Shown: one piece after another, positions 7,588 to 47,713 of the stretch
Position numbering within the stretch: position 1 is the first letter of the stretch
How the letters are laid out: the number at the start of each line of letters is the position of its first letter
Assembly (NCBI GenBank): GCA_009995545.1
Contig: JAACPI010000001.1
Coordinates: 115,698 to 179,697 of the forward strand
DNA: 64,000 bases
Origin: a bacterium
GTDB taxonomy: Bacteria > Patescibacteriota > WWE3 > 2-01-FULL-39-13 > JAACPI01
Direction of reading: 5' to 3'
Program-made: the position numbers and the translations under genes
Notes under the pieces: model-generated
What the model was told of the DNA's origin: nothing
Seen by the model: the letters and a program-made list of their open reading frames with translations, nothing else
The model's database searches: none

Positions 7588-9066
7588 GTGAGAAAAGATG
7601 TACAAGAAATTATTGATCGGTATGAAAGCTACCACCCAAACCCCCGTTCACATATTATAAAAAGTGCATACAAGTTAGCTGAAATTTTATATTTTGGTGA
7701 AAAGCGAGTTAATGAAGAACCTTGGCTAGATCATGCAATCAGAATTTCCAATTATTTATCAAAACTTGGATTAGACTCCATTACTATATCAGCAGGATTA
7801 CTTCACGACTCCTTAGAGTTTGGTTTAACCTATAAAGAGATTGAACAAGAGGTTGACCCTGATGTAGCCGAGTTAGTGCAAAACATTATTACTATAAAGG
7901 AGATTAGAGGGAAGGGAGTTGTTAATGGGTCCGACGGGGGCCAAGTAGAGTATTTGAGAAGATTAATTATTTCTACTGCAAAAGATGTTAGGGCTGTAAT
8001 AATAAGATTAGTAGAAAAACTGGATTCTCTTAAAACTGTGGAGTATTTAGAGGGACAAAAAAAACAATTGGTTTTAGATAACGCTTTAAATTTATATGCC
8101 CCCCTGGCAGAACAAATTGGTTTAAATAACCTTAAGTCAGATATAGAAGATGCCGCTTTTGAAAGACTCGACCCAGAAACTTTTAAAAAACTTCAGCATA
8201 CATTGGACACACACCCAGTAACTAACGACAAATATATTAAAGAGGTTACTGAAATTATTAAAGATATTATTCAATCAGAAAAAATAGATCTAGTGGACTA
8301 TTATGGTCGAAAAAAGCGACCTTACTCACTTAATAAAAAAATCATTCGGTACATGCAAAAATTTAATTATAGTGAGGCATCCGCTATAGAGAGTATCCAC
8401 GATAAAGTAGCCTTTAGAATAATTTTAAATTCTGTGGAAGATTGTTATAAAGTATTAGATCTGCTCCATAATAGTTTTAAATACATCCCTTCGGAATTTG
8501 ATGACTATATCTCTAAGCCTAAACCAAATGGATATAAAAGTTTGCAGACTTCTTTAGAATTACTAAACGGTCATTTTGCTGAGGTGCAAATAAGAACTTT
8601 AGATATGCACCGCCACAACGAATACGGTATGGCTAGTCATATCATTTACAAGTTAAATGACGCAAAATCAGATGCTCCTGCAAGTGAAAAGATAGAGGTG
8701 CTAAAAAGATTAATATCTTGGAAAGATGGTATTTTAACAACAGATAAGAGTGGGGTTAATATTGAGGAGATAGAAAAATACCTTTTTGTTTTTACTCCAA
8801 AGGGTGATCTATTTGAATTACCTAAAAATTCTACAGCCTTAGACTTTGCATATATACTACACTCCGATCTTGGACATAAGGCCGTTAGAGCAAAAATAAA
8901 TGGGGTACTAAAGCCCCTTAATGTTATACCAAAAAATGGCGACGTAATAGAAATTATTTGTGACATTAAAAAAAAGGGTCCTAGCAGGGATCACTTAGAA
9001 TTTGTAGTGAGTAAGGAGGCCCGGTTAAATATCAAAAAATGGCTACGTAGAGATTTAAAGATATAA
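7588..9066 (+). CDS. rel: Bifunctional (p)ppGpp synthetase/hydrolase, RelA/SpoT family (HD + synthetase + TGS; no ACT domain)
   Basis: HD motif 'AGLLHDSLE', synthetase motif 'YKSLQTSL...EVQIRTLDMHRHNEYGMASHIIYK', TGS-like 'FVFTPKGDLFELPKNSTALDFAYILHSDLGHK'. GTG start. Confidence 0.85.
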   Translation: MRKDVQEIIDRYESYHPNPRSHIIKSAYKLAEILYFGEKRVNEEPWLDHAIRISNYLSKLGLDSITISAGLLHDSLEFGLTYKEIEQEVDPDVAELVQNIITIKEIRGKGVVNGSDGGQVEYLRRLIISTAKDVRAVIIRLVEKLDSLKTVEYLEGQKKQLVLDNALNLYAPLAEQIGLNNLKSDIEDAAFERLDPETFKKLQHTLDTHPVTNDKYIKEVTEIIKDIIQSEKIDLVDYYGRKKRPYSLNKKIIRYMQKFNYSEASAIESIHDKVAFRIILNSVEDCYKVLDLLHNSFKYIPSEFDDYISKPKPNGYKSLQTSLELLNGHFAEVQIRTLDMHRHNEYGMASHIIYKLNDAKSDAPASEKIEVLKRLISWKDGILTTDKSGVNIEEIEKYLFVFTPKGDLFELPKNSTALDFAYILHSDLGHKAVRAKINGVLKPLNVIPKNGDVIEIICDIKKKGPSRDHLEFVVSKEARLNIKKWLRRDLKI

Positions 9067-17444: not shown

Positions 17445-18437
17445 ATGAAAACAGCTATACCGAGCGCTCAAGAGCTATTACAGGCAGGAGTACATTTTGG
17501 ACATCAAACTAGAAGATGGCATCCAAAAATGGATAAATACATCCATAAAAAGCATTCTGGGATTCACGTTATCGACTTATTTAAAACTAAAGAATTACTA
17601 GAGGAAGCTGCCAAATTTGCTTACGAAACAGCAAGAACAGGAAAAAAGGTAATTTTTGTAGGTACTAAAGAGCAGGTAAAAGAAGTTGTAGAAATAGAGG
17701 CAAAAAGATCTGGGGCTTTATTTGTAACCGAAAGATGGTTTGGCGGTACCCTGACCAATTTTGAAGGGATTAAAGATAACAGACAAAAAATGTTAGATTT
17801 AAAAGCCAAAATGGAAGATGGAACTTTTAAAGATCTTACTAAAAGAGAAAGATTATTAATATCTAGGGATATAGAGAAACTAGACTTAAGCTACGGTGGT
17901 TTAGTAGGTTTACATGAACAACCCGGGGTACTTTTTATAGTAGACCCTAGAAAAGAAAAAACAGCTGTAAAAGAGGCTTTATTAAAGAATGTACCTATTA
18001 TTGCTTTAATAGATACAAACACGGATCCTACTAAAATAGATTATCCAATTCCTGGAAACGACGATGCCATAAAAAGTGTTGCTTTAATAACAAGAGTTAT
18101 TGCAGATGCAATTTTAGAAGGCTATAAAGACTTTGCTAGTGCAGAAAAAACTAAAGTAGTTGTCGAAGAAGGATCTGCTTATCCAGAGCTTGCTGGTAGA
18201 GATACCGAAAAAAAGGCTGCAACTAAAGAAAAAAACGAGCCTAAAGTAGTAGCTAAGGCCGATAAAAAAGAAAAATTACTTAAAGATTCCGATTTATCTG
18301 TAAAAACGGTAGATGCATTGAAGGCCGCAAAAATTTCTAACAGATCACAACTAGATAAAATGAGCGATGAGGAACTCGAGGCTGTTAAAGGTATAAGTAC
18401 AGCAGATATTAAAGAAATTAAACACTGGTTACAATAG
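17445..18437 (+). CDS. rpsB: 30S ribosomal protein S2 with about 80-aa Lys/Glu-rich C-terminal extension
   Basis: 'LLQAGVHFGHQTRRWHPKM' and 'ALIDTNTDP' signatures; 330 aa. Confidence 0.9.
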   Translation: MKTAIPSAQELLQAGVHFGHQTRRWHPKMDKYIHKKHSGIHVIDLFKTKELLEEAAKFAYETARTGKKVIFVGTKEQVKEVVEIEAKRSGALFVTERWFGGTLTNFEGIKDNRQKMLDLKAKMEDGTFKDLTKRERLLISRDIEKLDLSYGGLVGLHEQPGVLFIVDPRKEKTAVKEALLKNVPIIALIDTNTDPTKIDYPIPGNDDAIKSVALITRVIADAILEGYKDFASAEKTKVVVEEGSAYPELAGRDTEKKAATKEKNEPKVVAKADKKEKLLKDSDLSVKTVDALKAAKISNRSQLDKMSDEELEAVKGISTADIKEIKHWLQ

Positions 18438-18939: not shown

Positions 18940-19009
18940 GTTACCTAACTCCTTCTACATAAAAATACTGGTTCCAGTATTTAATATATCTTATGTTAAG
19001 TGTGTTTTG

Positions 19010-24276: not shown

Positions 24277-26718
24277 ATGATTTATTTTATAGTTTTAATT
24301 GTAACTTTAGTAGTAATTGCCGCAGGCTATCTTTCTTTCCAAAAGGTACAAAAATTAAATAGTAAAAGTATACTTCCCTCAAACCTAGTAGTTTTAAATG
24401 TTCGTGTCCCAAAAGCTATTGAAAAGGAGGAGGTAGAAAATGCCTCGACTGCAGCAGAAAGAATGTTCTCTAGCTTACACGGTATTTTAAATAGTGCCCA
24501 GAAAAGATCCGAGGAGGTTATAAATTTAGAAATTTACTCTTCTAAGTCAGGTATAAGCTTTTATGTGGTTATACCCGAAGGGATAAAAAGCTTTGTAGAA
24601 AATCAAATATACGCTCAGTACAAAGGAGCTCAGATTACTGTTAAAGAAGACTATTTATCAGAGTTTAATTTAGAGAATAAAAAATCTAAATTAGTAAATC
24701 TAACCTTATCAAAAAAAAGTTTTTTCCCCTTAAAAACGTTTTTAGAATTCGATGTGGACCCTTTGTCTTCGGTTACGGCAGCCCTCTCTGAGGTTAAGGG
24801 TGAAGATAAGATTGTACTGCAACTCTCCGTTTTACCTCTGGCTGACTCTTGGCAAGAGGAGGGGCATGAGTACACCACTGCTTTAAAAGCGGGTACTTTA
24901 AACTCTCCTGGAATTTTTGGGATAATATTTTCTGCTCTAATGAAAGGGTTTAATAACTTATTATTTGGTTTTTCTGAAGAATCTTCTAAGGCGGTTTCTG
25001 GAAAGTCTTTGTCTGTTGTAGAAGAAAAGCATATCCAAATAATTGAGGAAAAACTAGCAAAAATGGGTTTTGACTCCCAGATAAAAATATTTGTAAGTTC
25101 AGATGATGACGCATCCTCTAGCTCTTATCTTAGGTCTGTAATAGGTAGTTTTAGACAATACACTAGTGCACAACATAATGCTTTAATTCAGGGATCTTTA
25201 TCTTACGAGGATAGCTTTGCCTTGGACTTTTTAAAGTCACGAACGTTGATTTCTGAGGACTCTTACATTTTTAATACAGAGGAGCTTGCTAGTATTTACC
25301 ATTTTCCCTCCGGTGTTGTTGCAACTCCAAACATTGCTTGGACAAACTCTAAAAAAGGTGAACCACCTTTAAATTTACCTATAGAAGGCGATGTGAATTT
25401 TTTTGGTACCACTAACTTTAGAGACAAAGAAGTAAAATTTGGGATTAAAAACAACCAAGATAGAATGAGGCACATGTACTTTGTAGGTAAAACTGGAACA
25501 GGTAAATCTACAGTTTTTGAAAACATGATTATTCAAGACATTATTGATGGTAGGGGTTGCTGTTATATCGATCCACACGGTGAAACTATAGAAAAAATAC
25601 TTTCAAGAGTTCCTAAAGATCGAATTGACGACGTAGTTTTAATCGATCCTTCTAATGCAGATAGGCCCCCCGCAATTAATATTATGGAGTGTCCCGACCC
25701 TTCACAAAAAAATCTTTTATCTTCGAGCATACTTTCTGCTTTTAAATTACAGTTTGGTTACAGCTGGGGTCCGAGATTAGAATATCTTTTAAATTTTGCC
25801 CTACTTACCTTAACTGAAATCGAAGGTACATCTCTTTTGGGTATTACAAGACTTTTAACTGATAAGAACTATAGAAAATATATATTACAAAAAACAGATG
25901 ATCCTGTGGTTCTAAGATTTTGGAATGAGGAGTACGCTGAGCTAGAGCAGAGCTTTGGAGCAGAGGCTGTAAGCCCTATTCAAAATAAAGTTGGTAGACT
26001 ATTGTCCTCAACTACCTTAAGAAATATCTTTGGACAAAGAAATTCTACAATTCAGTTTGACGAAATAATGAACGAAAAGAAAATTTTACTTGTTAATTTG
26101 AGTAAGGGAAAAATTGGAGACGATAACGCAAACTTAATGGGTTCATTAATAGTTAACCGACTAACCTTTTATGCAATGCAAAGGGCTAGTTTATTAGAAA
26201 AAGACCGAGTGCCCTTTTATTTGTATGTAGATGAGTTTCAGAACTTTGCAACAGAGAGTTTTATTACAATATTGAGCGAGGCCCGAAAATACGGCCTATC
26301 TTTACATTTAACTCACCAGTACACTGCTCAGCTTCCAGAACCCATTAGAGATGCTATTTTGGGTAATGTGGGTACAATGATAGCACTAACTCTTGGAGCT
26401 CAAGACGCCTCCACATTAGCACCCGAATTTATGCCCACCTTTGACGAGACTGACCTAATTAGCCAGGAAAAATATAATTTTTACTGTAAACTTCAAATAG
26501 ATGGAGCTACTAGTAAGCCATTTTCTGGTAGGGGATTGCCTCCAGTGTATTTAGAAGAGTCTAACTACAGTAAAGAAATAAAGGCTCTATCCTCGGAAAA
26601 GTACGGTAGAGACAAAGCTTATGTACAAGAAAAAATTAAAATTTGGTTGAATAGACCTTTTGATGTCGGTATGGCAATAGCCGAAAATTATCGAAAAACA
26701 GCCAATAATAAATCTTAG
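24277..26718 (+). CDS. Membrane-anchored P-loop NTPase of the TraD/TraG/VirD4 (type IV coupling protein) / FtsK-HerA superfamily
   Basis: N-terminal TM helix. Walker A 'FVGKTGTGKST', Walker B 'FYLYVDEFQNF', C-terminal 'HLTHQYTAQL'. 813 aa. Confidence 0.5.
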   Translation: MIYFIVLIVTLVVIAAGYLSFQKVQKLNSKSILPSNLVVLNVRVPKAIEKEEVENASTAAERMFSSLHGILNSAQKRSEEVINLEIYSSKSGISFYVVIPEGIKSFVENQIYAQYKGAQITVKEDYLSEFNLENKKSKLVNLTLSKKSFFPLKTFLEFDVDPLSSVTAALSEVKGEDKIVLQLSVLPLADSWQEEGHEYTTALKAGTLNSPGIFGIIFSALMKGFNNLLFGFSEESSKAVSGKSLSVVEEKHIQIIEEKLAKMGFDSQIKIFVSSDDDASSSSYLRSVIGSFRQYTSAQHNALIQGSLSYEDSFALDFLKSRTLISEDSYIFNTEELASIYHFPSGVVATPNIAWTNSKKGEPPLNLPIEGDVNFFGTTNFRDKEVKFGIKNNQDRMRHMYFVGKTGTGKSTVFENMIIQDIIDGRGCCYIDPHGETIEKILSRVPKDRIDDVVLIDPSNADRPPAINIMECPDPSQKNLLSSSILSAFKLQFGYSWGPRLEYLLNFALLTLTEIEGTSLLGITRLLTDKNYRKYILQKTDDPVVLRFWNEEYAELEQSFGAEAVSPIQNKVGRLLSSTTLRNIFGQRNSTIQFDEIMNEKKILLVNLSKGKIGDDNANLMGSLIVNRLTFYAMQRASLLEKDRVPFYLYVDEFQNFATESFITILSEARKYGLSLHLTHQYTAQLPEPIRDAILGNVGTMIALTLGAQDASTLAPEFMPTFDETDLISQEKYNFYCKLQIDGATSKPFSGRGLPPVYLEESNYSKEIKALSSEKYGRDKAYVQEKIKIWLNRPFDVGMAIAENYRKTANNKS

Positions 26719-28314: not shown

Positions 28315-28845
28315 ATGTCAGGTCATTCTAAATGGAGTACTATAAAAAGAAAAAAAGCTATAGAAGATAACAAAAGAGGTAAGGATTTTACCAAGCTTGC
28401 TAAAGCGATTACTGTTGCAGTTAAAAAAGGTAACAATGGTGATCCAGAACTAAATTCATATTTAAGGATAGCTGTAGAAAAAGCCAAGCAATTAAATTTA
28501 CCCAAAGATAAAATCCAGTCTGCAATTGATAGGGCACTTGGCAAGGAAGGTGAGGCACTTATAGAAGTCAATTATGAGGCTTATGTTTACGGTGGAATAG
28601 GCCTTATTATTTATTGTGGAACAGATAACACTAATCGTTCAATAAACGAAGTAAAAGCAATTCTTTCTAAACACGATTCCGGTATAGGTACACCTAATTC
28701 CGTAGCCTATCTATTTAATTCTGAGGGACAACCTTCATTTAAAATACCTTTACAAAAAGAATTGACGGATAGATTTAATGATTTACTTGACGAGCTTGAG
28801 GACTTAGATGACGTTATGGAGCTTGCACACAATGCTGAATTTTAA
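28315..28845 (+). CDS. YebC/PmpR-family (DUF28) regulator, minimal 176-aa form
   Basis: 'MSGHSKWSTIKRKKAIEDNKRGKDFTKLAKAITVAVKKG' and C-terminal 'LEDLDDVMELAHNAEF'. Confidence 0.75.
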   Translation: MSGHSKWSTIKRKKAIEDNKRGKDFTKLAKAITVAVKKGNNGDPELNSYLRIAVEKAKQLNLPKDKIQSAIDRALGKEGEALIEVNYEAYVYGGIGLIIYCGTDNTNRSINEVKAILSKHDSGIGTPNSVAYLFNSEGQPSFKIPLQKELTDRFNDLLDELEDLDDVMELAHNAEF

Positions 28846-29751: not shown

Positions 29752-29762
29752 GTAGGGAAGTA

Positions 29763-29771
29763 GGGGGGGGG
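29763..29771. repeat. G9 homopolymeric tract
   Basis: Nine consecutive G immediately 3' of the 28876-29751 gene; rare in this AT-rich sequence. Confidence 0.9.
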
Positions 29772-30213
29772 ATTTAGACCTATAGTAAATACCCTATAGT
29801 AATTATTGCAATATATAACGACATATTATCAACAAATTGTATTCTTGTCAGGTGACACTAGTGCCTGTATAAAAGCTTTTTATATGTGGATAACTGTATC
29901 TCACAAACAAACAAAAAATTTGATCTGGTCGCAGAGTAGGGGGCTATGTGATAATGTCATATAACTATAGGTCTAAATTGTCATAGTTTATATCTTGTAG
30001 TATTGTCATAGTTTTTGTAGGACCCTTGCTAAACTACTTTATTACTCCTATAAATGCTATTTTTATGGATGCAGTATTTATTTGATAAATTTTAAAAAAC
30101 AAATAAAAACAAATAAATAGCTTTTTTTAGTTAGTAGGTAGCTTGGTAGGTCCCCTGATTTTTATTTGACTATAAATTGTGACAATACCTTTTGTCATCT
30201 AAAAAGCTATTTA

Positions 30214-30241
30214 ATGTCGTTAAATATACAGATTACGACAA
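30214..30241. promoter_or_regulatory. Candidate dif-like Xer recombination site (11-6-11 imperfect palindrome with TATACA/TGTATA spacer)
   Basis: ATGTCGTTAAA-TATACA-GATTACGACAA, whose reverse-complement spacer TGTATA equals the canonical dif spacer. The arms are only weakly similar to consensus dif. Sits between convergent gene blocks, about 4 kb from the Xer-like recombinase. Confidence 0.2.
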
Positions 30242-30599
30242 CTAATTTCTTTCTTATAAATAGTAAAAGTATTCCCTACTTTGGGTTTTTATACTTATTT
30301 TAAATCTGCTCGTGTATCCTTTTAATTATGTCTGCTTCCCTATTTTGTTTTTGAGTTCCCTATTTTAAGTGAATTCCCTTGTTATCCTTTTTGAATTCGA
30401 AAATATTACGAAATTAAATTACGAACTTTACGTATTTACTTAGTTCGTATATATTGTCGTTTGTGTCTAAGTGTAAGTTTACCTATCTAAAGCTGCTTTT
30501 GGTGTAATGTTGCTGTAACTAAACATCAATATGGTCAATAAATGCTTTAGGTAAAGCAATAAATCAAAATAATCGTTTTAAGGGGTTTTAAATAATACA

Positions 30600-30625
30600 A
30601 GGTGTTGGAACACCTTTATTTTTTA
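30600..30625 (+). terminator. Rho-independent terminator-like hairpin plus T-tract (orientation favours a + strand transcript)
   Basis: AGGTGTT-GG-AACACCT, a perfect 7-bp stem, followed by TTATTTTTTAT. The nearest + strand CDS ends about 850 bp upstream. The hairpin is about 45 nt from the stop of the minus-strand gene 30669-31364, but its minus-strand flank is less T-rich. Confidence 0.5.
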
Positions 30626-30668
30626 TATTTCTCTGCACTAGAAGCTTAAAACTACCCAAGGCGATAAT

Positions 30669-31364
30669 TTAGAGTTCAAAATCTAAAATCATTGGTAAGT
30701 GATCTGAGATTTCTATATAGGGAACTTTAAAATGCTTAACTTTTATTTTAGAATCCGTAAAAGTGTAATCTGCATAAAGCTGTTTTTTCCCGGGATGAAT
30801 TTTCCAAGATTTTTTATTTCTGGTGGTTTGTATTTTATATTCGTTTACTAAGTTTATAAATCCTTTTTGCTCAAACATTCTTATACTTTCGGTTTGGGGC
30901 AATAAATTAAAGTCTCCGCCAATTATTATTGGATCAGTTAGTTTACTACAATGTTTTAGAATGGTTTTTGATTGCTGTAGTCTTTCGTCTGTGTCCAGTT
31001 TGGTGCCTGGAAAAGCTACTCCATGAACATTTATTATATTAAAGTTTTTATTTTTATAATTTAGTGTCAGGTTTATGGCTAGTCCAATATTTAAAAAGCT
31101 ATTGTCCATTAAAGAGGTTATATCTAAGGTTTTTATAGGTTTTTTAACTAATATGGCGTTAGAAAAACTACTATTTTTATCTATATATTTAAAAACAGTG
31201 TAGCTTTTAAACTCTTGTAAGTATTTGAAGATAACTTTTTGAATATTGTAGTGGCACTCTTGTAAGCAAAAAATATCTGTAGTTGGAGCTAAAGCTTGTA
31301 GAAATTTTCTTATTCCTATTGGGTCGATTTCGTTGTTTGCAGTGTTTAAGAATATAACTTTCAC
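30669..31364 (-). CDS. Endonuclease/exonuclease/phosphatase (EEP) family protein
   Basis: 'IFCLQEC', 'IINVHG', 'IIGGDFN', 'EISDHLPMILDFEL' are EEP-fold motifs. Confidence 0.75.
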   Translation of the reverse strand: MKVIFLNTANNEIDPIGIRKFLQALAPTTDIFCLQECHYNIQKVIFKYLQEFKSYTVFKYIDKNSSFSNAILVKKPIKTLDITSLMDNSFLNIGLAINLTLNYKNKNFNIINVHGVAFPGTKLDTDERLQQSKTILKHCSKLTDPIIIGGDFNLLPQTESIRMFEQKGFINLVNEYKIQTTRNKKSWKIHPGKKQLYADYTFTDSKIKVKHFKVPYIEISDHLPMILDFEL

Positions 31365-34281: not shown

Positions 34282-34381
34282 TCCCTAAATTATAGCATTT
34301 AAATATTATCCTCTGTATTGGGTAAACTCTAAACGTCGTTAAATATTGACTAATCCCCTACTTACTTTTAAACTTGTTTTA

Positions 34382-35365
34382 ATGCCAAATCTTAACAGCT
34401 TAATAGCTGGTTTTTTACAACACGCCGAGGTGGAGCGTAATTTATCTCAGGGTACTATAAAGATGTACCATATGTATCTAGATAAATTTGAGGAGTTTAG
34501 CAAAGATCACTTACATAAAAAGGAGCTAACCGAAAAAGATATTGATAAAGACTTAATTACCGCCTACAGAATCTACCTGAACCGTAAAACTTCTGAGACC
34601 AACCCCACAGAAACCTTGAGTAAGGCTACTCAAAATTGTTTTTTAATAGGTCTTAGGTCGTTTTTAAAATATTTATCGGTACAAAAAGATTTAAAATCTT
34701 TAGATGCTAACAAAATAACATTAGCAAAAACTGGTGACAGGGTACCTAAATTTTTAACGAAAGAAGATTTAGAACGATTATTTAGTAGGCAAAACGTTAG
34801 TAAGCGATCCGGTCTTAGAGATCGGGCTATTTTAGAGCTTTTATATTCCACCGGCCTCAGGGTTAGTGAATTAACAGCTCTAAATCTAACTGATCTCAGC
34901 CCCCAAGTACTAGAAAGTAAGGAATTTACTGTAATAGGTAAAGGAAGAAAAGCTAGAACGGTTTACTTAACGGACCCGGCTGTAAATTGGTTAAAAAGAT
35001 ACTTGTCTATTAGAAAAGATCCGTTTAAACCCTTATTTGTTAGGTACAGCGGTAAAAGTATGGACCTAAACGATGCCGACGGTAAAAGTTTAAGGTTAAC
35101 GCCTAGAAGCGTGCAAAGAATGATTAAAAAATACTCGGTACAGGCGGGTATCGCTGTAGATGTTACGCCTCATGTTTTAAGACACAGTTTTGCCACACAT
35201 ATTCTAAAAAAAGGGGCAGATATTAGAAGTGTGCAAGAGCTTCTAGGGCACAGCAATATTAGTACAACCCAAATATACACTCACTTAACAAATCAAGACT
35301 TAAAAAAGACCCATCAAAAGTTTCATAACGATACACACGACTCCGCCACATCTAGTATTCTTTAG
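34382..35365 (+). CDS. Tyrosine site-specific recombinase, XerC/XerD-like
   Basis: N-terminal SAM-like domain 'LIAGFLQHAEVERNLSQGTIKMYHMYLDKF', 'LRDRAILELLYSTGLRVSELTALNL', catalytic 'HVLRHSFATHIL…GHSNISTTQIYTHL'. The ORF track starts at 34346; the Met at 34382 aligns better with the Xer N-terminus. Confidence 0.8.
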   Translation: MPNLNSLIAGFLQHAEVERNLSQGTIKMYHMYLDKFEEFSKDHLHKKELTEKDIDKDLITAYRIYLNRKTSETNPTETLSKATQNCFLIGLRSFLKYLSVQKDLKSLDANKITLAKTGDRVPKFLTKEDLERLFSRQNVSKRSGLRDRAILELLYSTGLRVSELTALNLTDLSPQVLESKEFTVIGKGRKARTVYLTDPAVNWLKRYLSIRKDPFKPLFVRYSGKSMDLNDADGKSLRLTPRSVQRMIKKYSVQAGIAVDVTPHVLRHSFATHILKKGADIRSVQELLGHSNISTTQIYTHLTNQDLKKTHQKFHNDTHDSATSSIL

Positions 35366-35444: not shown

Positions 35445-36209
35445 GTGACAATGAGTGATAGTTTATTAACAATAAAAGAATCTGCAGCTTACTTAAAAGT
35501 TCACTGGCAAAGTGTAAGAACTTATATAAAAAACGGGACACTCCCCTACTCTAAAATTGGTAAAAATATTCGTATTAAAAAAAGTGATTTAGATAATTTT
35601 ATTTCTGGTAAAAAACAAATTAAGTCTTTTGAGGTGGATACTTGGTATAAAGTGGCCGATATAAAAGATATTCAGGGTAAGTTGCTAAACTTAAATGCCA
35701 AAGTCGCTTATTCTGCAAATATTATTGATCACTGGTTTTGTCCCTTAAACGTCTCTAGTTTAAAAGAAAATTCTGTGTTTTATGAGAACTCAAAAGGGTT
35801 TGGTTTAAGGATAAGAGAATTAAGTAATGACTTGCTAGGAAGTAAGGTTTCTATTGATGTAAAAAAACAGACAGAGGAAGGTGGTTATCATGACCACAGA
35901 GTAGTGTTTGAAACTAATATGTCGGTTAGTTCTTATAATTCTGCAAAAGCCTTATTAAAGGCCATGGGTCAAAAGGAGTTTTGCACAGTTTACAGAGATA
36001 GAACTATGTATCAACTAAATGGTTTAAAAATTAGTGTAGAAAACATTAAAGAGTTGGGTATGTTTATAGATATTGGGATAACAAGAATTAGCGAAACCGA
36101 GGGTATTAAGGAGATTAATAATCTGGCTAACAAACTTAACTTAAAAGAATCTCAAAAATTAGATAAAAGCATTGGTTATTTGGCTATTCAAAAAATGTCA
36201 CATTTTTAA
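35445..36209 (+). CDS. Excisionase-family HTH DNA-binding domain fused to a CYTH-like (CyaB/ThiTPase triphosphate-tunnel) domain
   Basis: N-terminal 'LLTIKESAAYLKVHWQSVRTYIKNGTLPYSKIGKNIRIKKSDLDNFI' is an excisionase-type HTH. Downstream 'FEVDTWYKV' (ExExK-like), 'GFGLRIRE' (RxR) and 'FIDIGITRISETE' resemble CYTH motifs (moderate). Confidence 0.45.
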   Translation: MTMSDSLLTIKESAAYLKVHWQSVRTYIKNGTLPYSKIGKNIRIKKSDLDNFISGKKQIKSFEVDTWYKVADIKDIQGKLLNLNAKVAYSANIIDHWFCPLNVSSLKENSVFYENSKGFGLRIRELSNDLLGSKVSIDVKKQTEEGGYHDHRVVFETNMSVSSYNSAKALLKAMGQKEFCTVYRDRTMYQLNGLKISVENIKELGMFIDIGITRISETEGIKEINNLANKLNLKESQKLDKSIGYLAIQKMSHF

Positions 36210-45043: not shown

Positions 45044-45670
45044 TTAAAGTAAATCTAAAAATAAGTTAGTTAATTGAATATCTTTATTTAAAGTTATACC
45101 ACTTAATAACCGCTTTTTAAGTAGCATAATTTTTTTTGCAGATTTTGTGTAATTCTTAGGTTTATTTTCTTTAAGGTATGTTTCTAGACTGTTTATAAAC
45201 TCATTAACATTTTCCTTTTTTACATCCCATACTTTACTAACTTGTTTATCTTTAATTATCAAACCGATATTCTCCATACGTTTCTTGTTAACACTTTCAG
45301 TACTTATTAAAGTACTCACAACTACTCTTGAGAGTGTTGTAGGTAAAATATTTGCTATAGAGTTGGCGTGAAGTAAAATCTTTACCCTACCCTCCTCTAG
45401 TGTTTTTAAAAGCATGTTTTGTATTCTCTCACCTACTCTATCGTAATTATAAAAACAAATGTACTTGGAATTAAGGGTATTGGGTTTTAATGAAGTTTCC
45501 GATAAAAGAGTTCTAACTTCTTTTGTGGATAAAATAGTATCTCCCCTATTGCAGTTAATAATATCTATGTTGTTCAAAATATTTATGGGTGTACCTTCAA
45601 CCTCAGAGATGTATTTTGCAAGGTGATTTTCGGCATTTTTTTCGTTATTACCTATAATTAAAATAGACAT
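45044..45670 (-). CDS. DNA polymerase III delta-prime (HolB)-like clamp-loader subunit, degenerate (no P-loop)
   Basis: 'NMLLKTLEEGRVKILLHANSIANILPTTLSRV' resembles the clamp-loader sensor-2/lid 'NALLKTLEEP…LPTIRSR' region. Confidence 0.4.
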   Translation of the reverse strand: MSILIIGNNEKNAENHLAKYISEVEGTPINILNNIDIINCNRGDTILSTKEVRTLLSETSLKPNTLNSKYICFYNYDRVGERIQNMLLKTLEEGRVKILLHANSIANILPTTLSRVVVSTLISTESVNKKRMENIGLIIKDKQVSKVWDVKKENVNEFINSLETYLKENKPKNYTKSAKKIMLLKKRLLSGITLNKDIQLTNLFLDLL

Positions 45671-45871
45671 TATTATCAGAATAATTTTAGAGACTTTTTA
45701 ATAAAATTGAAATACATTTATCTTACAGTTATAGTTATATTAGTATAAAAGAAATAAACACTATATGTTTAGGTGTAGTTTTTTTGTATTTAATATAAAA
45801 TATCATTAAGTTGCCCATACGTATAACATCGAGATAAATAATTTTTTTAAACATTTGTATCTTCTGCCCAA

Positions 45872-47713
45872 ATGACAACGAGTAAAGACATAGCTGAAAT
45901 ACTATTTGACCAAAATAAACTGGATAAAGACCAGTTAAACGCGATTAGAATAGAAAGTGTTAATACAGGTAAAAGTGTAGAAAATATTTTGCAGGAGCGT
46001 AATTTGGTAACCAGTGATGACTTGATAAAAGCTAAAAGCTTCCTGAACGGTTTTGAATACTTTGATCCTAGTCTTAGTACAATACCCAATGAGATTTTAG
46101 ACTTAGTTTCTGAATCTATTGCTAAAAAGAGTCTTTTAATCCCCTTTGATAATAAGAATGGTGTTTTAAGTTTGGCCATGGTGGACCCTTTAGACCTTCC
46201 CACTATAGAATTAATTGAAAGAAGAAGTTCGTTGAGAGTTAAGCCTTTTATGGCATCCTCAGATAGTGTTCAAAAAGCGATTGCATCCCAGTACGGAAAA
46301 AGTATCGGAAAAGATGTTTCTGAAGCCTTAGGTGCCGAGGATGATTCTGCAACTAAACTTGAAGAAAACTTAAAAGACGTTGGCGACGCTGATAAAATAG
46401 TACAGGATTCCTCCGTAGCAAGGGTTGTAAGTATTATTTTGGAGTACGCTGTTAAGGTGGGTGCTTCGGATGTTCATATAGAACCTGGAGAAACATCTAC
46501 ACGTGTCAGGTATAGAGTTGACGGAATTTTACAAGAAAAGCTTTCTAAAATACCTAGAGAAAGTCATGATTCTTTGGTTGCTAGAATTAAAATTTTAGCA
46601 AATTTAAAGATTGACGAAAAAAGAAAACCACAAGACGGTAGGTTTAAAATTGAAATGGCTGGAGAAAAAGTGGATTTGCGAATTTCTATTATCCCCACAG
46701 TCAATGGCGAAAAAGTTGTTATTAGGCTATTAAAAGACCAGGGTAATGTAGTAAAACTTAAAGACTTGGGTCTTAGAGGTGCGGCTCTTAGAAACTTTGA
46801 TAGCAGTCTTTTAAAACCTAACGGAATAATTTTAGTTACTGGGCCAACTGGGTCAGGTAAAACTTTGACGTTGGCAACAGCCCTCAGAAAACTTAATTCA
46901 GTACGTGTAAATATTATGACCTTAGAAGATCCTGTTGAAATTAGAGTACCTGGAATAAATCAAATCCAAATAAACCCTGACGCTGGTTTGACTTTTGCCT
47001 CAGGTCTTAGGTCATTTTTAAGACAAGATCCTAACGTAATAATGGTGGGAGAAATTCGAGATAGTGAAACAGCTAACTTAGCTGTGCAAGCTGCCTTAAC
47101 GGGTCACTTAGTTTTAGCAACTTTACATACGAATTCTGCCGCAGGTTCTATACCTCGGCTTTTAGATATGAAGGTTGAAAACTTTTTGCTTTCCTCCACT
47201 ATTAATACAGTTTTAGCTCAAAGGCTTGTGCGTAATCTTTGCCCCTATTGTAAAGTTAGGTACGATGCCCCCGAGGGTACGGTTAAAGATATACAAGAGG
47301 TTTTGGGTAAGTTTTATTCCACCGAACTTATAAAAATCAATGCAAGTGTTCCCCTGCCACAAGAAAAGACTTCAACTGCTCAAGAACAGGAATCAAAGGC
47401 GTTCGATGAGAAAATTAGTGAGCTCAATCTAGAGAATGCGGATACAAAATCTACAGAAAATAAAATAAATTTGTATAGGGGCGAGGGCTGTGATAGGTGT
47501 AATAAAGTTGGTTACCTGGGTCGTGTCGGTATTTACGAGGTTTTAAACGTAACTGATAAAATTTCCTCAATGATTGCAGGAGATATTACTACCCAAGATT
47601 TGGAAAAAGAGGCTATAGCAGGTGGGATGATGACTTTAAAACAAGATGGATTTATAAAAGCCTTAGAGGGTATCACTAGTCTAGAAGAGGTTCTAAGAGT
47701 GGCTAGTGAGTAG
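45872..47713 (+). CDS. pilB: Type IV pilus assembly ATPase PilB (GspE family)
   Basis: N-terminal GSPII_E_N domain, Walker A 'GPTGSGKTLTLA', and a tetracysteine motif 'CPYCK…CDRCN'. Confidence 0.9.
   Translation: MTTSKDIAEILFDQNKLDKDQLNAIRIESVNTGKSVENILQERNLVTSDDLIKAKSFLNGFEYFDPSLSTIPNEILDLVSESIAKKSLLIPFDNKNGVLSLAMVDPLDLPTIELIERRSSLRVKPFMASSDSVQKAIASQYGKSIGKDVSEALGAEDDSATKLEENLKDVGDADKIVQDSSVARVVSIILEYAVKVGASDVHIEPGETSTRVRYRVDGILQEKLSKIPRESHDSLVARIKILANLKIDEKRKPQDGRFKIEMAGEKVDLRISIIPTVNGEKVVIRLLKDQGNVVKLKDLGLRGAALRNFDSSLLKPNGIILVTGPTGSGKTLTLATALRKLNSVRVNIMTLEDPVEIRVPGINQIQINPDAGLTFASGLRSFLRQDPNVIMVGEIRDSETANLAVQAALTGHLVLATLHTNSAAGSIPRLLDMKVENFLLSSTINTVLAQRLVRNLCPYCKVRYDAPEGTVKDIQEVLGKFYSTELIKINASVPLPQEKTSTAQEQESKAFDEKISELNLENADTKSTENKINLYRGEGCDRCNKVGYLGRVGIYEVLNVTDKISSMIAGDITTQDLEKEAIAGGMMTLKQDGFIKALEGITSLEEVLRVASE

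What the first reader, a model, noticed from the sequence alone, without database searches (positions are those of the whole stretch)
29752..30668. 0.9-kb non-coding, repeat-dense region at a convergent-gene boundary, ending in a + strand intrinsic terminator: candidate unannotated ncRNA or recombination/regulatory locus
This genome leaves almost no intergenic space elsewhere. Here 917 bp have no ORF of 60 aa or more on either strand. Upstream genes (332-29751) are almost all on +, the next four genes are on -, so transcription converges here. Structure seen: a G9 tract (29763-29771). A 12-bp inverted repeat TAGACCTATAGT (29775-29786) and ACTATAGGTCTA (29964-29975). A tandem ATTGTCATAGTTT pair 26 bp apart (29978-29990, 30004-30016) plus further TTGTC(A/G)T or TGACAA motifs (29953, 30176, 30192, 30214, 30233, 30466). 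A CACTAGTG palindrome (29858-29865). A perfect DnaA-box 9-mer TGTGGATAA (29885-29893). TTCCCTATTTT twice (30337-30347, 30357-30367). An 8-bp-stem hairpin TACGAACT…AGTTCGTA (30420-30450). A textbook + strand terminator (30600-30625) with no + strand CDS for 850 bp upstream, which argues that a + strand non-coding transcript ends there.
Basis: seen in the sequence. Interest (0 to 1): 0.55.

Follow-up and report, generated by a model that had tools for sequence, protein, structure and literature searches.

The report
Chromosome terminus and dimer-resolution (dif) locus
This gene-free 0.9-kb stretch is most likely where the two halves of a small uncultured (CPR) bacterium's chromosome meet: a strand-polar guide motif flips direction here, around an invariant, non-standard candidate site for untangling joined sister chromosomes.

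Summary
The gap 29752-30668 has no ORF of 60 aa or more, and the listed repeats exist, some 1-2 nt off (one about 12).

It is best read as a DNA element, not an RNA gene. A G-rich polar motif, (G)TAGGGGA(G), lies on the + strand left of the gap and on the - strand right of it. TAGGGGA scores 21 toward and 0 away and is the top word in an unbiased scan. The best switch point is 30-31 kb. The bias holds inside + strand genes alone (p=1.5e-5) and recurs in relatives. This is the signature of KOPS-type motifs converging on dif at the replication terminus.

Within the 330-bp switch interval sits a 24-nt imperfect palindrome, GTCGTTAAATATACAGATTRCGAC (30216-30239). It is near-invariant in 10 divergent CPR lineages and fits 11-6-11 dif geometry, but not the canonical XerCD consensus. 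Its left arm recurs just upstream of the -35 of a XerD-like gene in three lineages.

Rfam, tRNA/tmRNA scans, RNAalifold and a cognate/non-cognate pairing test give no support for a structured RNA. oriC is excluded by polarity.

Unexplained: the roughly 0.9 kb of conserved collinear blocks around the site, including an enriched DnaA box. Verdict: new variant of a known kind.

The parts
29752..29771 (+). G-rich block GTAGGGAAGTAGGGGGGGGG. It holds two + strand copies of the polar GTAGGG(G/A) motif directly after the stop codon of the upstream gene. The G9 run is G8 in two strain variants.
29772..29800 (+). Two direct copies of CCTATAGT (29779-29786 and 29793-29800). The first lies within the left arm of the 15-nt perfect inverted repeat (29772-29786).
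   Evidence: CCTATAGT is invariant in 8 lineages
29885..29893 (+). Perfect DnaA-box 9-mer TGTGGATAA. A perfect copy in the same orientation lies in the element of four further distinct lineages beyond this one, at variable positions.
   Evidence: 4 in 8.3 kb of elements vs 1 in 149 kb of flanks, P=4e-7
29934..29943 (+). GAGTAGGGGG, the last + strand copy of the polar motif before the switch.
29964..29978 (+). ACTATAGGTCTAAAT, the right arm of the 15-nt inverted repeat. ACTATAGG is invariant across lineages.
29977..30014 (+). Two direct copies of ATTGTCATAGTTT (29977-29989 and 30002-30014). In all lineages the exact TGTCATAG word occurs only in this orientation.
30088..30120 (+). A-rich tract with tandem AAAAACAAAT x2.3. 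It corresponds to the conserved ATAAAAAT..ATAAAAT block of relatives.
30214..30241 (.). Candidate dif core. The 28-mer is ATGTCGTTAAA-TATACA-GATTACGACAA. The near-invariant 24-nt imperfect palindrome GTCGTTAAATATACAGATTRCGAC is 30216-30239. It is unique in the window and lies inside the 330-bp polarity-switch interval.
30271..30280 (-). ATTCCCTACT, the first - strand copy of the polar-type motif (GTAGGGA on the - strand), 34 nt after the palindrome.
30336..30366 (-). Two copies of TTCCCTATTTT (ATAGGGAA on the - strand). These are the C-rich blocks conserved at this distance from the palindrome in most lineages.
30544..30585 (.). Conserved 3' module: palindrome GCTTTAGGTAAAGC plus ATCGTTTTAAGGGG. 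The (CTCATAAT)..GCGTTTTAAGRG part is forward in five lineages and reverse-complemented in three.
30599..30625 (.). Intrinsic-terminator-like hairpin AAGGTGTTGGAACACCTT plus T run. It scores on both strands.
34332..34351 (+). AACGTCGTTAAATAT, a copy of the left arm and half centre of the palindrome, abutting the -35 (TTGACT, 34346-34351) of the Xer gene promoter.
   Evidence: same arrangement in L011 and L027
34382..35365 (+). Xer-family tyrosine recombinase gene of 327 aa. The longest ORF starts at 34346.

Best explanation
The gap is the junction of the two replication arms of a CPR (candidate division WWE3-like) chromosome. This is the terminus/dif locus.

Shown:
- A G-rich polar word, about (G)TAGGGGA(G), lies on the + strand across the 30 kb to the left and on the - strand across the 34 kb to the right. 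It flips inside this gap.
- The last + copies and first - copies sit within the gap itself and bracket a 330-bp interval.

Inferred:
- These words act like KOPS/SRS motifs. They steer an FtsK-type translocase toward the junction.
- The near-invariant 24-nt imperfect palindrome at 30216-30239 has 11-6-11 geometry with central TATACA. It is the core site where a XerD-like tyrosine recombinase resolves chromosome dimers.
- The recombinase gene lies 4 kb away here, and 1.2 kb away in another lineage.
- The same recombinase probably binds a copy of the left arm at its own promoter, for autoregulation.
- The other conserved blocks are DNA-level binding sites of unknown partners that organise this locus. 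They are CCTATAGT/ACTATAGG, TTGTCATAGTTT x2, the A-rich tract, a DnaA box and the 3' module.
- Any transcript crossing the region is read-through from the upstream operon, ended by the hairpin at 30599-30625.
For: Polarity in the window:
- In an unbiased 7-mer scan TAGGGGA is the top word, 21 toward and 0 away, Bonferroni p=0.0026.
- TAGGGG gives 39 of 45 copies concordant, with the best switch at 30,000-31,000.
- The bias is independent of gene strand. Within + strand genes it is 16/1 on the left and 2/11 on the right, Fisher p=1.5e-5. Excluding the gap it is 18/2 vs 4/19, p=2e-6.

Replication in other lineages:
- In the flanks, with the element excluded, GGGGAG is 52:6 (Bonferroni 6e-7), AGGGGAG 27:1, GGGGAGT 23:0 and GTAGGGG 15:0.
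- GC skew is positive on the left and about 0 or negative on the right of most lineages. Genes converge here.

The palindrome:
- It is unique in the window even at up to 3 mismatches, with 0 expected.
- It is near-invariant (0-2 substitutions, fixed internal spacing) in 10 lineages whose neighbouring protein falls to 42-45% identity.

Link to the recombinase:
- The recombinase is Xer family: XerD 252 bits, XerC 252 bits, XerA 221 bits against a cutoff of 220. Its closest solved structure is E. coli XerD, E=3e-43.
- GTCGTTAAATAT occurs only twice in 64 kb, once in the palindrome and once abutting the -35 of the xer gene.
- GTCGTTAA sits at the same place in L011 and L027, whose xer is 56% identical.

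Comparable systems:
- Known KOPS/SRS are G-rich octamers with a skew of about 0.8-1.0 that switch at dif (PMC3384302; PMC2958812).
- Real dif sites can carry GTCGC...GCGAC outer arms and a TATACA centre, for example in Magnetospirillum (PMC2731167).
Against: - The palindrome does not match the canonical bacterial dif consensus. By my manual count it scores 19/28 against a consensus recalled from memory, while background 28-mers in these AT-rich loci reach 21-23. The inner ATAA/TTAT arms are missing.
- Only 64 kb of the genome is visible. The terminus assignment rests on local polarity, not a whole-genome skew curve.
- GC skew to the right (46-64 kb) stays positive, following gene strand.
- No FtsK gene lies in the window.
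- The xer gene is near the site in only 3 of about 10 lineages.
- The blocks inside the gap on the right are TAGGGAA-type. That word is only weakly polar genome-wide, 16:9.
- About 0.9 kb of conserved flanking architecture and an enriched DnaA box are not expected of a classical 28-bp dif. They remain unexplained.
- A weak canonical-like dif 28-mer exists at 18974-19001.
Confidence: 0.68

Rival explanations
1. A large structured non-coding RNA of about 600-870 nt lies on the + strand. It would be co-transcribed with the upstream YebC-like and membrane-protein operon, much as OLE RNA lies next to its membrane-protein partner gene, and it would end at the terminator at 30599-30625. The G-rich 5' blocks would pair with the C-rich blocks, and the invariant hairpin would be a protein- or tertiary-contact loop. 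This could coexist with a DNA-level role.
For: - The block order, orientation and spacing are fixed in all lineages.
- No terminator lies between the upstream gene and the gap, and there is a + strand terminator at the end.
- The + strand folds better than the - strand in the window, z -3.56 vs -1.22.
- At one stem position of the invariant hairpin, A varies with G, keeping U-A or U-G on the + strand only.
- Cognate duplex energies are slightly better than non-cognate ones, p=0.02-0.03.
Against: - There are no Rfam matches.
- RNAalifold consensus energy is only -5.7 and -5.4 kcal/mol, with covariation terms of +0.35 and 0 kcal/mol. No long-range helix shows compensatory change. The hairpin stem and the CCUAUAGU/ACUAUAGG helix are invariant apart from one U-A/U-G position in the hairpin.
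- z-scores across lineages are modest and similar on both strands, and L020 is stronger on the - strand.
- The ungapped helix test for cognate against non-cognate pairs is not significant, p=0.25 and 0.20.
- The G/C-block complementarity is explained by inverted copies of a genome-wide polar motif.
- Motif copy numbers vary between lineages.
- The 3' module flips orientation in three lineages, by my own reading of the alignments.
- The DnaA box moves position between lineages.
Confidence: 0.12
2. The locus is a terminus-organising or fork-arrest region in which the invariant palindrome is bound by a non-recombinase protein, such as a Tus/RTP-like contrahelicase or a MatP-like organiser. The true dif would lie elsewhere.
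For: - The locus is at the polarity switch.
- Many conserved, orientation-fixed short sites such as TTGTCATAGTTT look like polar protein-binding sites.
- The palindrome is not a canonical dif.
- A canonical-like 28-mer exists 11 kb away, at 18974-19001.
Against: - The palindrome's left arm recurs at the promoter of the Xer gene in three lineages. This ties it to the recombinase.
- The 18974 site is expected by chance about 0.1 times per window. It lies where polar motifs still point rightward, 10 + to 1 - between 19 and 30 kb.
- No other segment of the switch interval has fixed spacing and near-invariance.
Confidence: 0.12
3. The locus is the chromosomal replication origin (oriC): a DnaA box, an AT-rich repeat acting as the unwinding element, and other initiator-binding sites.
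For: - Perfect DnaA boxes are strongly enriched in the element across lineages, P=4e-7.
- There is an A-rich tandem repeat.
- It is a large conserved non-coding region.
Against: - Polar motifs, GC skew and gene orientation all converge on the site instead of diverging from it.
- There is only one perfect box and one 1-mismatch box in the gap, and box counts in the window are not above chance.
- No dnaA or dnaN gene is near the site in any lineage.
Confidence: 0.03
4. The region is a decayed gene, a miniature mobile element bounded by the inverted repeats, or a small-protein locus.
For: - There is a 15-nt perfect inverted repeat.
- Six-frame peptides around the palindrome match relatives, E down to 6e-11.
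Against: - The same locus, next to the same gene, is conserved in lineages down to 42-45% protein identity.
- The element is single-copy in the window.
- tblastn hits occur in five frames at the same place, and the start codon is not conserved.
- There is no similarity to plasmids or phages.
Confidence: 0.03

Closest known systems
Bacterial XerCD/dif chromosome dimer resolution site with flanking KOPS (E. coli, B. subtilis SRS)
   Same: - It is a single-copy imperfect palindrome with 11-6-11 geometry, sitting exactly where a G-rich polar 7-8-mer switches strand.
- Genes converge there and GC skew changes.
- A XerD-like recombinase is encoded in the genome.
- The central hexamer TATACA equals that of E. 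coli and Magnetospirillum dif.
   Different: - The arms lack the conserved inner ATAA/TTAT and the TTATGTTAAAT XerD arm. Symmetry is in the outer GTCG/CGAC bases instead.
- Only one xer gene is seen.
- The site is embedded in about 0.9 kb of conserved non-coding blocks, whereas classical dif has variable flanks (PMC2731167).
- The polar word is TAGGGGA(G), at about 1 per 3 kb, rather than GGGNAGGG at about 1 per 12 kb.
Single-recombinase Xer modules (XerS/difSL of streptococci, XerH/difH of Helicobacter and Campylobacter, archaeal XerA/dif)
   Same: - The site is non-canonical.
- Both arms share the same outer bases, which would suit one recombinase.
- The recombinase gene is close to the site in some lineages (1.2-4.3 kb).
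- The protein just passes the NCBIfam XerA model cutoff.
   Different: - The protein is closer to XerD (1a0p, E=3e-43) than to XerH (6e-16) or XerS (134 bits against a cutoff of 267).
- The site sequence is unrelated to the difSL and difH consensus.
- The xer gene is not adjacent in most lineages.
Plasmid Xer sites cer/psi with about 180-bp accessory sequences
   Same: A Xer-type core is flanked by hundreds of bp of functionally required, protein-bound accessory DNA.
   Different: - Those are plasmid sites that are independent of FtsK.
- Here the site is chromosomal, with KOPS-like polarity.
- The accessory-like DNA lies on both sides, and its binding proteins are unknown.
OLE RNA and other large bacterial ncRNAs (GOLLD, ROOL, HEARO)
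   Same: It is a conserved non-coding region of about 600-900 nt, located next to a conserved membrane-protein gene and probably co-transcribed with it.
   Different: - There is no Rfam match.
- There is no covariation.
- Conservation is in short sequence blocks of variable copy number, and one block is invertible.

Membership tests
Xer/dif chromosome dimer resolution site | Two roughly 11-bp imperfect inverted-repeat arms separated by a 6-8-bp central region | tested here: met
   ATGTCGTTAAA-TATACA-GATTACGACAA. The outer five bases of each arm are complementary (GTCGT/ACGAC). Internal spacing is fixed in all 10 lineages.
Xer/dif chromosome dimer resolution site | Match to the conserved bacterial dif consensus (inner ATAA/TTAT, XerD arm TTATGTTAAAT) | tested here: not met
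   The site scores 19/28 by my manual count against a consensus recalled from memory. Background 28-mers in these AT-rich loci reach 21-23. No core match at up to 3 mismatches occurs at the switch.
Xer/dif chromosome dimer resolution site | Single copy, located at the switch of polar motifs or GC skew (terminus) | tested here: met
   The site is unique in 64 kb at up to 3 mismatches. It lies between the last + copy (29936) and the first - copy (30274) of the polar motif. The whole-genome position could not be tested.
Xer/dif chromosome dimer resolution site | A Xer-family tyrosine recombinase that recognises the site | tested here: inconclusive
   A Xer-family gene is present, and a copy of the site's left arm sits at its promoter in three lineages. 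Binding and recombination were not testable.
KOPS/SRS-type polar motifs (AIMS) | A short G-rich word that is highly skewed to one strand per replication arm, independent of gene strand, and switches at dif | tested here: met
   TAGGGGA is 21:0. The switch is at 30-31 kb. Within + strand genes it is 16/1 vs 2/11, p=1.5e-5. It replicates in relatives.
KOPS/SRS-type polar motifs (AIMS) | Recognition by the gamma domain of an FtsK/SpoIIIE translocase | not testable with these tools
   No FtsK gene is in the window. The nearby 813-aa P-loop ATPase is TraG/VirD4/HerA-like, not FtsK.
Single-recombinase modules XerS/difSL and XerH/difH | A recombinase of the XerS/XerH type, with the site next to its gene | tested here: not met
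   XerS scores 134 bits against a cutoff of 267. XerH scores E=6e-16, weaker than XerD. The gene is 1.2-4.3 kb away in three lineages and absent from the DNA held to the right of the site (a few kb to 13 kb) in the others.
Structured ncRNA (any Rfam family; OLE-like large RNA) | A match to a covariance model, or a conserved secondary structure supported by compensatory changes | tested here: not met
   Rfam gives 0 hits at gathering score, and only E>=0.2 hits far below it. RNAalifold covariation terms are +0.35 and 0 kcal/mol. The cognate/non-cognate helix test gives p=0.2-0.25.
Bacterial oriC | Divergent replication polarity (skew and polar motifs pointing away), a DnaA-box cluster and an unwinding element | tested here: not met
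   Polarity converges. There is one perfect box and one near-perfect box only. An A-rich repeat is present.

The most novel reading that the evidence does not exclude
The whole conserved region of about 0.9 kb is a dedicated terminus-organising centre peculiar to these CPR bacteria. It would combine:
- a non-canonical dif core served by a single XerD-like recombinase;
- clustered loading and stop signals for a translocase on both sides;
- oriented arrays of two further protein-binding motifs (CCTATAGT/ACTATAGG and TTGTCATAGTTT), which could be a replication fork trap or accessory sites imposing resolution selectivity;
- a DnaA box that couples the terminus to the initiator.

This would be a composite nucleoprotein machine with no described counterpart.
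Probability: 0.3. Interest if true: 0.72.

Novelty: new variant of a known kind. Interest (0 to 1): 0.55.

Why it matters
CPR/Patescibacteria make up a large share of bacterial diversity. They have tiny genomes and are almost uncultured, and little is known about how they finish replication and separate their chromosomes. My searches of the paper library found nothing linking them to dif or KOPS.

This locus offers three things:
- a concrete candidate dif site that can be tested in vitro;
- its probable recombinase;
- a candidate guide motif, (G)TAGGGGAG.

These could be used to orient and close CPR genomes and to locate termini for growth-rate estimates. They also show that dif can diverge far from the 'universal' consensus while keeping its geometry. 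The unusually large conserved flanks and the terminus-located DnaA box suggest additional, unknown terminus proteins.

Tried and rejected
- Known RNA families. Rfam at gathering score over the whole window gave 0 hits. Rfam at E up to 10 on the gap gave only miRNA/sRNA noise.
- tRNA or tmRNA. ARAGORN found none.
- Plasmid or phage relationship. blastn in distant mode gave no match.
- Decayed gene or small ORF. Six-frame tblastn hits cluster around the palindrome in five frames. The ATG at 30214 is not conserved (AC, AA or AG in other lineages).
- RNA structure. Single-sequence folds give z of about -2 to -3 on + and -1 to -4.6 on -. RNAalifold was run on both halves. RNAduplex of the 5' end against the rest gave messy, inconsistent partners. 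The cognate against non-cognate pairing test showed little lineage-specific covariation.
- oriC. This was considered because of the DnaA box and the A-rich repeat. It was rejected on polarity.
- Canonical dif. An IUPAC consensus scan of the window and of the loci gave only background-level scores. The hit at 18974-19001 is not at the switch. The hits in L035 and L024 are, respectively, a promoter and a site inside a gene.
- Second copies of the palindrome. Ungapped and local-alignment scans gave only borderline degenerate copies 0.8-1 kb to the right in L015, L018 and L022. This is too weak to claim IMEX-type insertions.
- Sigma-70 promoter reading of the TTGTCA repeats. Spacing is not conserved across lineages.
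Full report
**1. Observation**

The window is a low-GC (about 33%) chromosome segment. Its content is housekeeping genes:
- dnaB, rpsB, tgt, gyrA/gyrB, and a RelA/SpoT protein (gyrA from the gene table);
- type IV pilus genes.

A homologue of the gene next to the gap is named by NCBI as from a candidate division WWE3 bacterium. Two loci from the genome scan are titled Saccharibacteria and Patescibacteria group. The organism is therefore a CPR bacterium.

The gap 29752-30668 has no ORF of 60 aa or more. It lies between a + strand 284-aa membrane-protein gene and a - strand Exo_endo_phos gene. Most coordinates are 1-2 nt off, and one is off by about 12. The inverted repeat is in fact 15 nt perfect.

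**2. Conservation**

I looked up homologues of the upstream membrane protein (71% down to 42% identity) on their contigs. I also scanned public genomes and metagenomes for the most conserved block. Together these gave 10 distinct lineages plus partial ones.

In every lineage the same upstream gene cluster is followed by 0.9-1.6 kb without real genes. That cluster comprises a TraG/HerA-like ATPase, a TPR protein, a short YebC-like protein and a membrane protein. The genes to the right differ between lineages and are mostly on the - strand.

The gaps share a collinear, orientation-fixed series of short blocks:
- GTAGGG-type G blocks;
- CCTATAGT;
- a variable stretch, often with TGTGGATAA;
- GTAGGGGG;
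- ACTATAGG;
- TTGTCATAGTTT, one or two copies in most lineages;
- an A-rich block;
- the near-invariant GTCGTTAAATATACAGATTRCGAC;
- CCCTAY blocks;
- a 3' module.

**3. Not an RNA gene, as far as can be tested**

- Rfam and ARAGORN find nothing.
- RNAalifold on eight lineages gives -5.7 kcal/mol for the 3' half and -5.4 for the 5' half. The covariation terms are +0.35 and 0 kcal/mol. The only long-range helix, CCUAUAGU/ACUAUAGG, is made of invariant bases, which says nothing either way.
- Fold z-scores are modest and present on both strands.
- The appealing complementarity between the 5' G blocks and the 3' C blocks is not lineage-specific. Cognate pairs score no better than non-cognate pairs in the helix test (p=0.25 and 0.20) and only slightly better in duplex energy (p=0.02-0.03).
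- Block copy number varies between lineages.
- The DnaA box changes position.
- The 3' module (CTCATAAT..GCGTTTTAAGRG) is reverse-complemented in three lineages, by my own reading of the alignments.

These are properties of DNA binding sites, not of a folded RNA.

**4. What explains the G/C blocks**

GTAGGG(G) turned out to be strand-polar over the whole window.
- GTAGGGG is 10 + and 0 - on the left, and 1 + and 7 - on the right.
- In an unbiased scan of all 7-mers, TAGGGGA is the top word, 21 toward the gap and 0 away, Bonferroni p=0.0026.
- With no prior cut, the best switch point for TAGGGG is 30,000-31,000, with 39 of 45 copies concordant.
- Gene orientation does not explain this. Within + strand genes only, copies are 16 + / 1 - on the left and 2 + / 11 - on the right, p=1.5e-5. 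Leaving out the gap gives 18/2 vs 4/19, p=2e-6.
- The flanks of the other lineages, with the element excluded, give the same word family at the top of an unbiased scan: GGGGAG 52:6, AGGGGAG 27:1, GGGGAGT 23:0, GTAGGGG 15:0. In these relatives gene strand is confounded with side.
- GC skew is positive on the left and about zero or negative on the right of most lineages.

Convergence of a G-rich polar word, positive-to-negative skew and convergent genes are the hallmarks of the replication terminus. There, KOPS/SRS motifs guide FtsK to dif (PMC3384302; PMC2958812; PMC3025954). An origin would show the opposite polarity, so oriC is rejected.

**5. The candidate dif**

The last + strand copies of the motif are at 29752, 29760 and 29936. 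The first - strand copy is at 30274. The 330 bp between them contain only one element with fixed internal spacing and near-invariance, the palindrome at 30216-30239.
- It is unique in the window even at 3 mismatches.
- Written as ATGTCGTTAAA-TATACA-GATTACGACAA, it fits the 11-6-11 geometry of dif.
- Its central hexamer equals that of E. coli and Magnetospirillum dif.
- Magnetospirillum dif also has GTCGC...GCGAC outer arms (PMC2731167).
- It lacks the conserved inner ATAA/TTAT and the XerD arm. By my manual count it scores 19/28 against a dif consensus that I recalled from memory, below background for these AT-rich loci.

I therefore do not file it as a canonical XerCD dif.

**6. Link to a recombinase**

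- The only tyrosine recombinase gene of the window (34382-35365) is Xer family. Its scores are XerD 252 bits and XerC 252 bits, both below the equivalog cutoffs, and XerA 221 bits against a cutoff of 220.
- Its closest solved structure is E. coli XerD.
- The 12-mer GTCGTTAAATAT, which is the left arm plus half the centre, occurs twice in 64 kb. One copy is in the palindrome. The other is at 34335-34346, abutting the -35 TTGACT of this gene.
- L011 has the same arrangement, with 17 identical bases.
- L027 has a 56%-identical xer gene 1.25 kb right of its palindrome. It carries GTCGTTAA just upstream of its promoter.

The simplest reading is that this recombinase binds that arm, both at the site and at its own promoter. 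An alternative is that the promoter copy is the degenerate junction of a 4.1-kb insertion at the site. Either reading ties the palindrome to Xer recombination. This step is inference, not demonstration.

**7. What remains unexplained**

- The function of CCTATAGT/ACTATAGG, the TTGTCATAGTTT repeats, the A-rich block and the 3' module is unknown.
- Perfect DnaA boxes are genuinely enriched in the element: 4 in 8.3 kb against 1 in 149 kb of flanks, P=4e-7, all in one orientation. A fifth is in L035.
- Classical dif sites have variable flanks. About 0.9 kb of conserved architecture is therefore unusual.

**8. Terminator**

The hairpin at 30599-30616 is real and scores on both strands. No terminator follows the upstream gene. 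A + strand transcript ending there would therefore most simply be read-through of that operon, and the hairpin can also end the convergent gene.

**9. Verdict**

The finding is real and conserved. It is best explained as the terminus/dif locus of a CPR chromosome, with a non-canonical Xer site and KOPS-like guide motifs.

My rough confidence estimates, combined into the 0.68 given for the best explanation:
- about 0.85 that it is the polarity junction;
- about 0.65 that the palindrome is the Xer core.

A structured RNA is not excluded, but it has no positive support (0.12).

It is a new variant of a known kind. Interest is moderate (0.55). It would be higher if the flanks prove to be a composite terminus machine.

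Noticed in passing
window 17445-18437 (+): The ribosomal protein S2 gene carries a C-terminal match to the RNA polymerase alpha C-terminal domain (PF03118, residues 273-330). This is an unusual fusion.
   Followed up: no
window 18974-19001 (+): A canonical-looking dif 28-mer, CCAGTATTTAA-TATATC-TTATGTTAAGT, sits in a convergent intergenic spacer. Its XerD arm matches 10 of 11 bases. About 0.1 such hits are expected per window, and it is not at the polar-motif switch.
   Followed up: partly
window 29763-29771 and 30017; loci L003, L006-L010: Among near-identical strains, nearly all differences in the 6 kb compared lie inside the gap (one in L009 lies outside). They are G9 to G8 in the homopolymer (L003, L006) and G to A at 30017, just after the second TTGTCATAGTTT (L003, L007-L010).
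   Followed up: partly
L014 (ends 334 nt after the gene), L036 (312 nt), L035 (599 nt), L026 (starts inside the element): Contigs from several independent assemblies break inside the element, near the TTGTCAT repeats and the A-rich tract. This could reflect strain heterogeneity to the right of the site, or coverage loss in the AT-rich stretch.
   Followed up: no
L015 about 8205-8235; L018 about 795 nt right of its palindrome (- strand); L022 about 973 nt right: The lineages with the longest gaps (1.45-1.6 kb) carry degenerate, indel-containing partial copies of the palindrome 0.8-1 kb to its right, for example ATGTCGTAAAATATTAGATACTTTAGGGAC. Scores are borderline against shuffles. These may be remnants of insertions at the site.
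   Followed up: partly
window 30544-30585 and homologous blocks in L015, L020, L026: The conserved module (CTCATAAT)..GCGTTTTAAGRG can form an AAAAY/GUUUU-type hairpin. It is present in opposite orientation in three lineages. This suggests an independent small element or a bidirectional signal.
   Followed up: partly
window 24277-26718 (+), with homologues upstream of the element in every lineage whose contig extends that far: An 813-aa P-loop ATPase (DUF8128, with weak TraG/VirD4/TraD/HerA matches) is conserved in synteny just upstream of the terminus locus. It belongs to the FtsK-HerA superfamily but is not FtsK.
   Followed up: no
window 28315-28845 (+): A shortened YebC/TACO1-family protein of 176 aa, against about 240 normally, is conserved immediately upstream in all lineages.
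   Followed up: no
window 35445-36209 (+): The gene next to xer encodes an excisionase-type HTH (residues 7-53) fused to a CYTH/class IV adenylate cyclase-like domain.
   Followed up: no
window 45524-45532 (-): The only other perfect DnaA box of the window lies at the end of the holB-like gene. This is about 140 bp from the divergent intergenic spacer at 45670-45872.
   Followed up: no
window 30214-30303 (+): An ATG at 30214 opens a 29-codon ORF through the palindrome (MSLNIQITTTNFF...). L015 has a similar 23-codon ORF. The start codon is absent in most lineages, so it is probably not a gene.
   Followed up: yes
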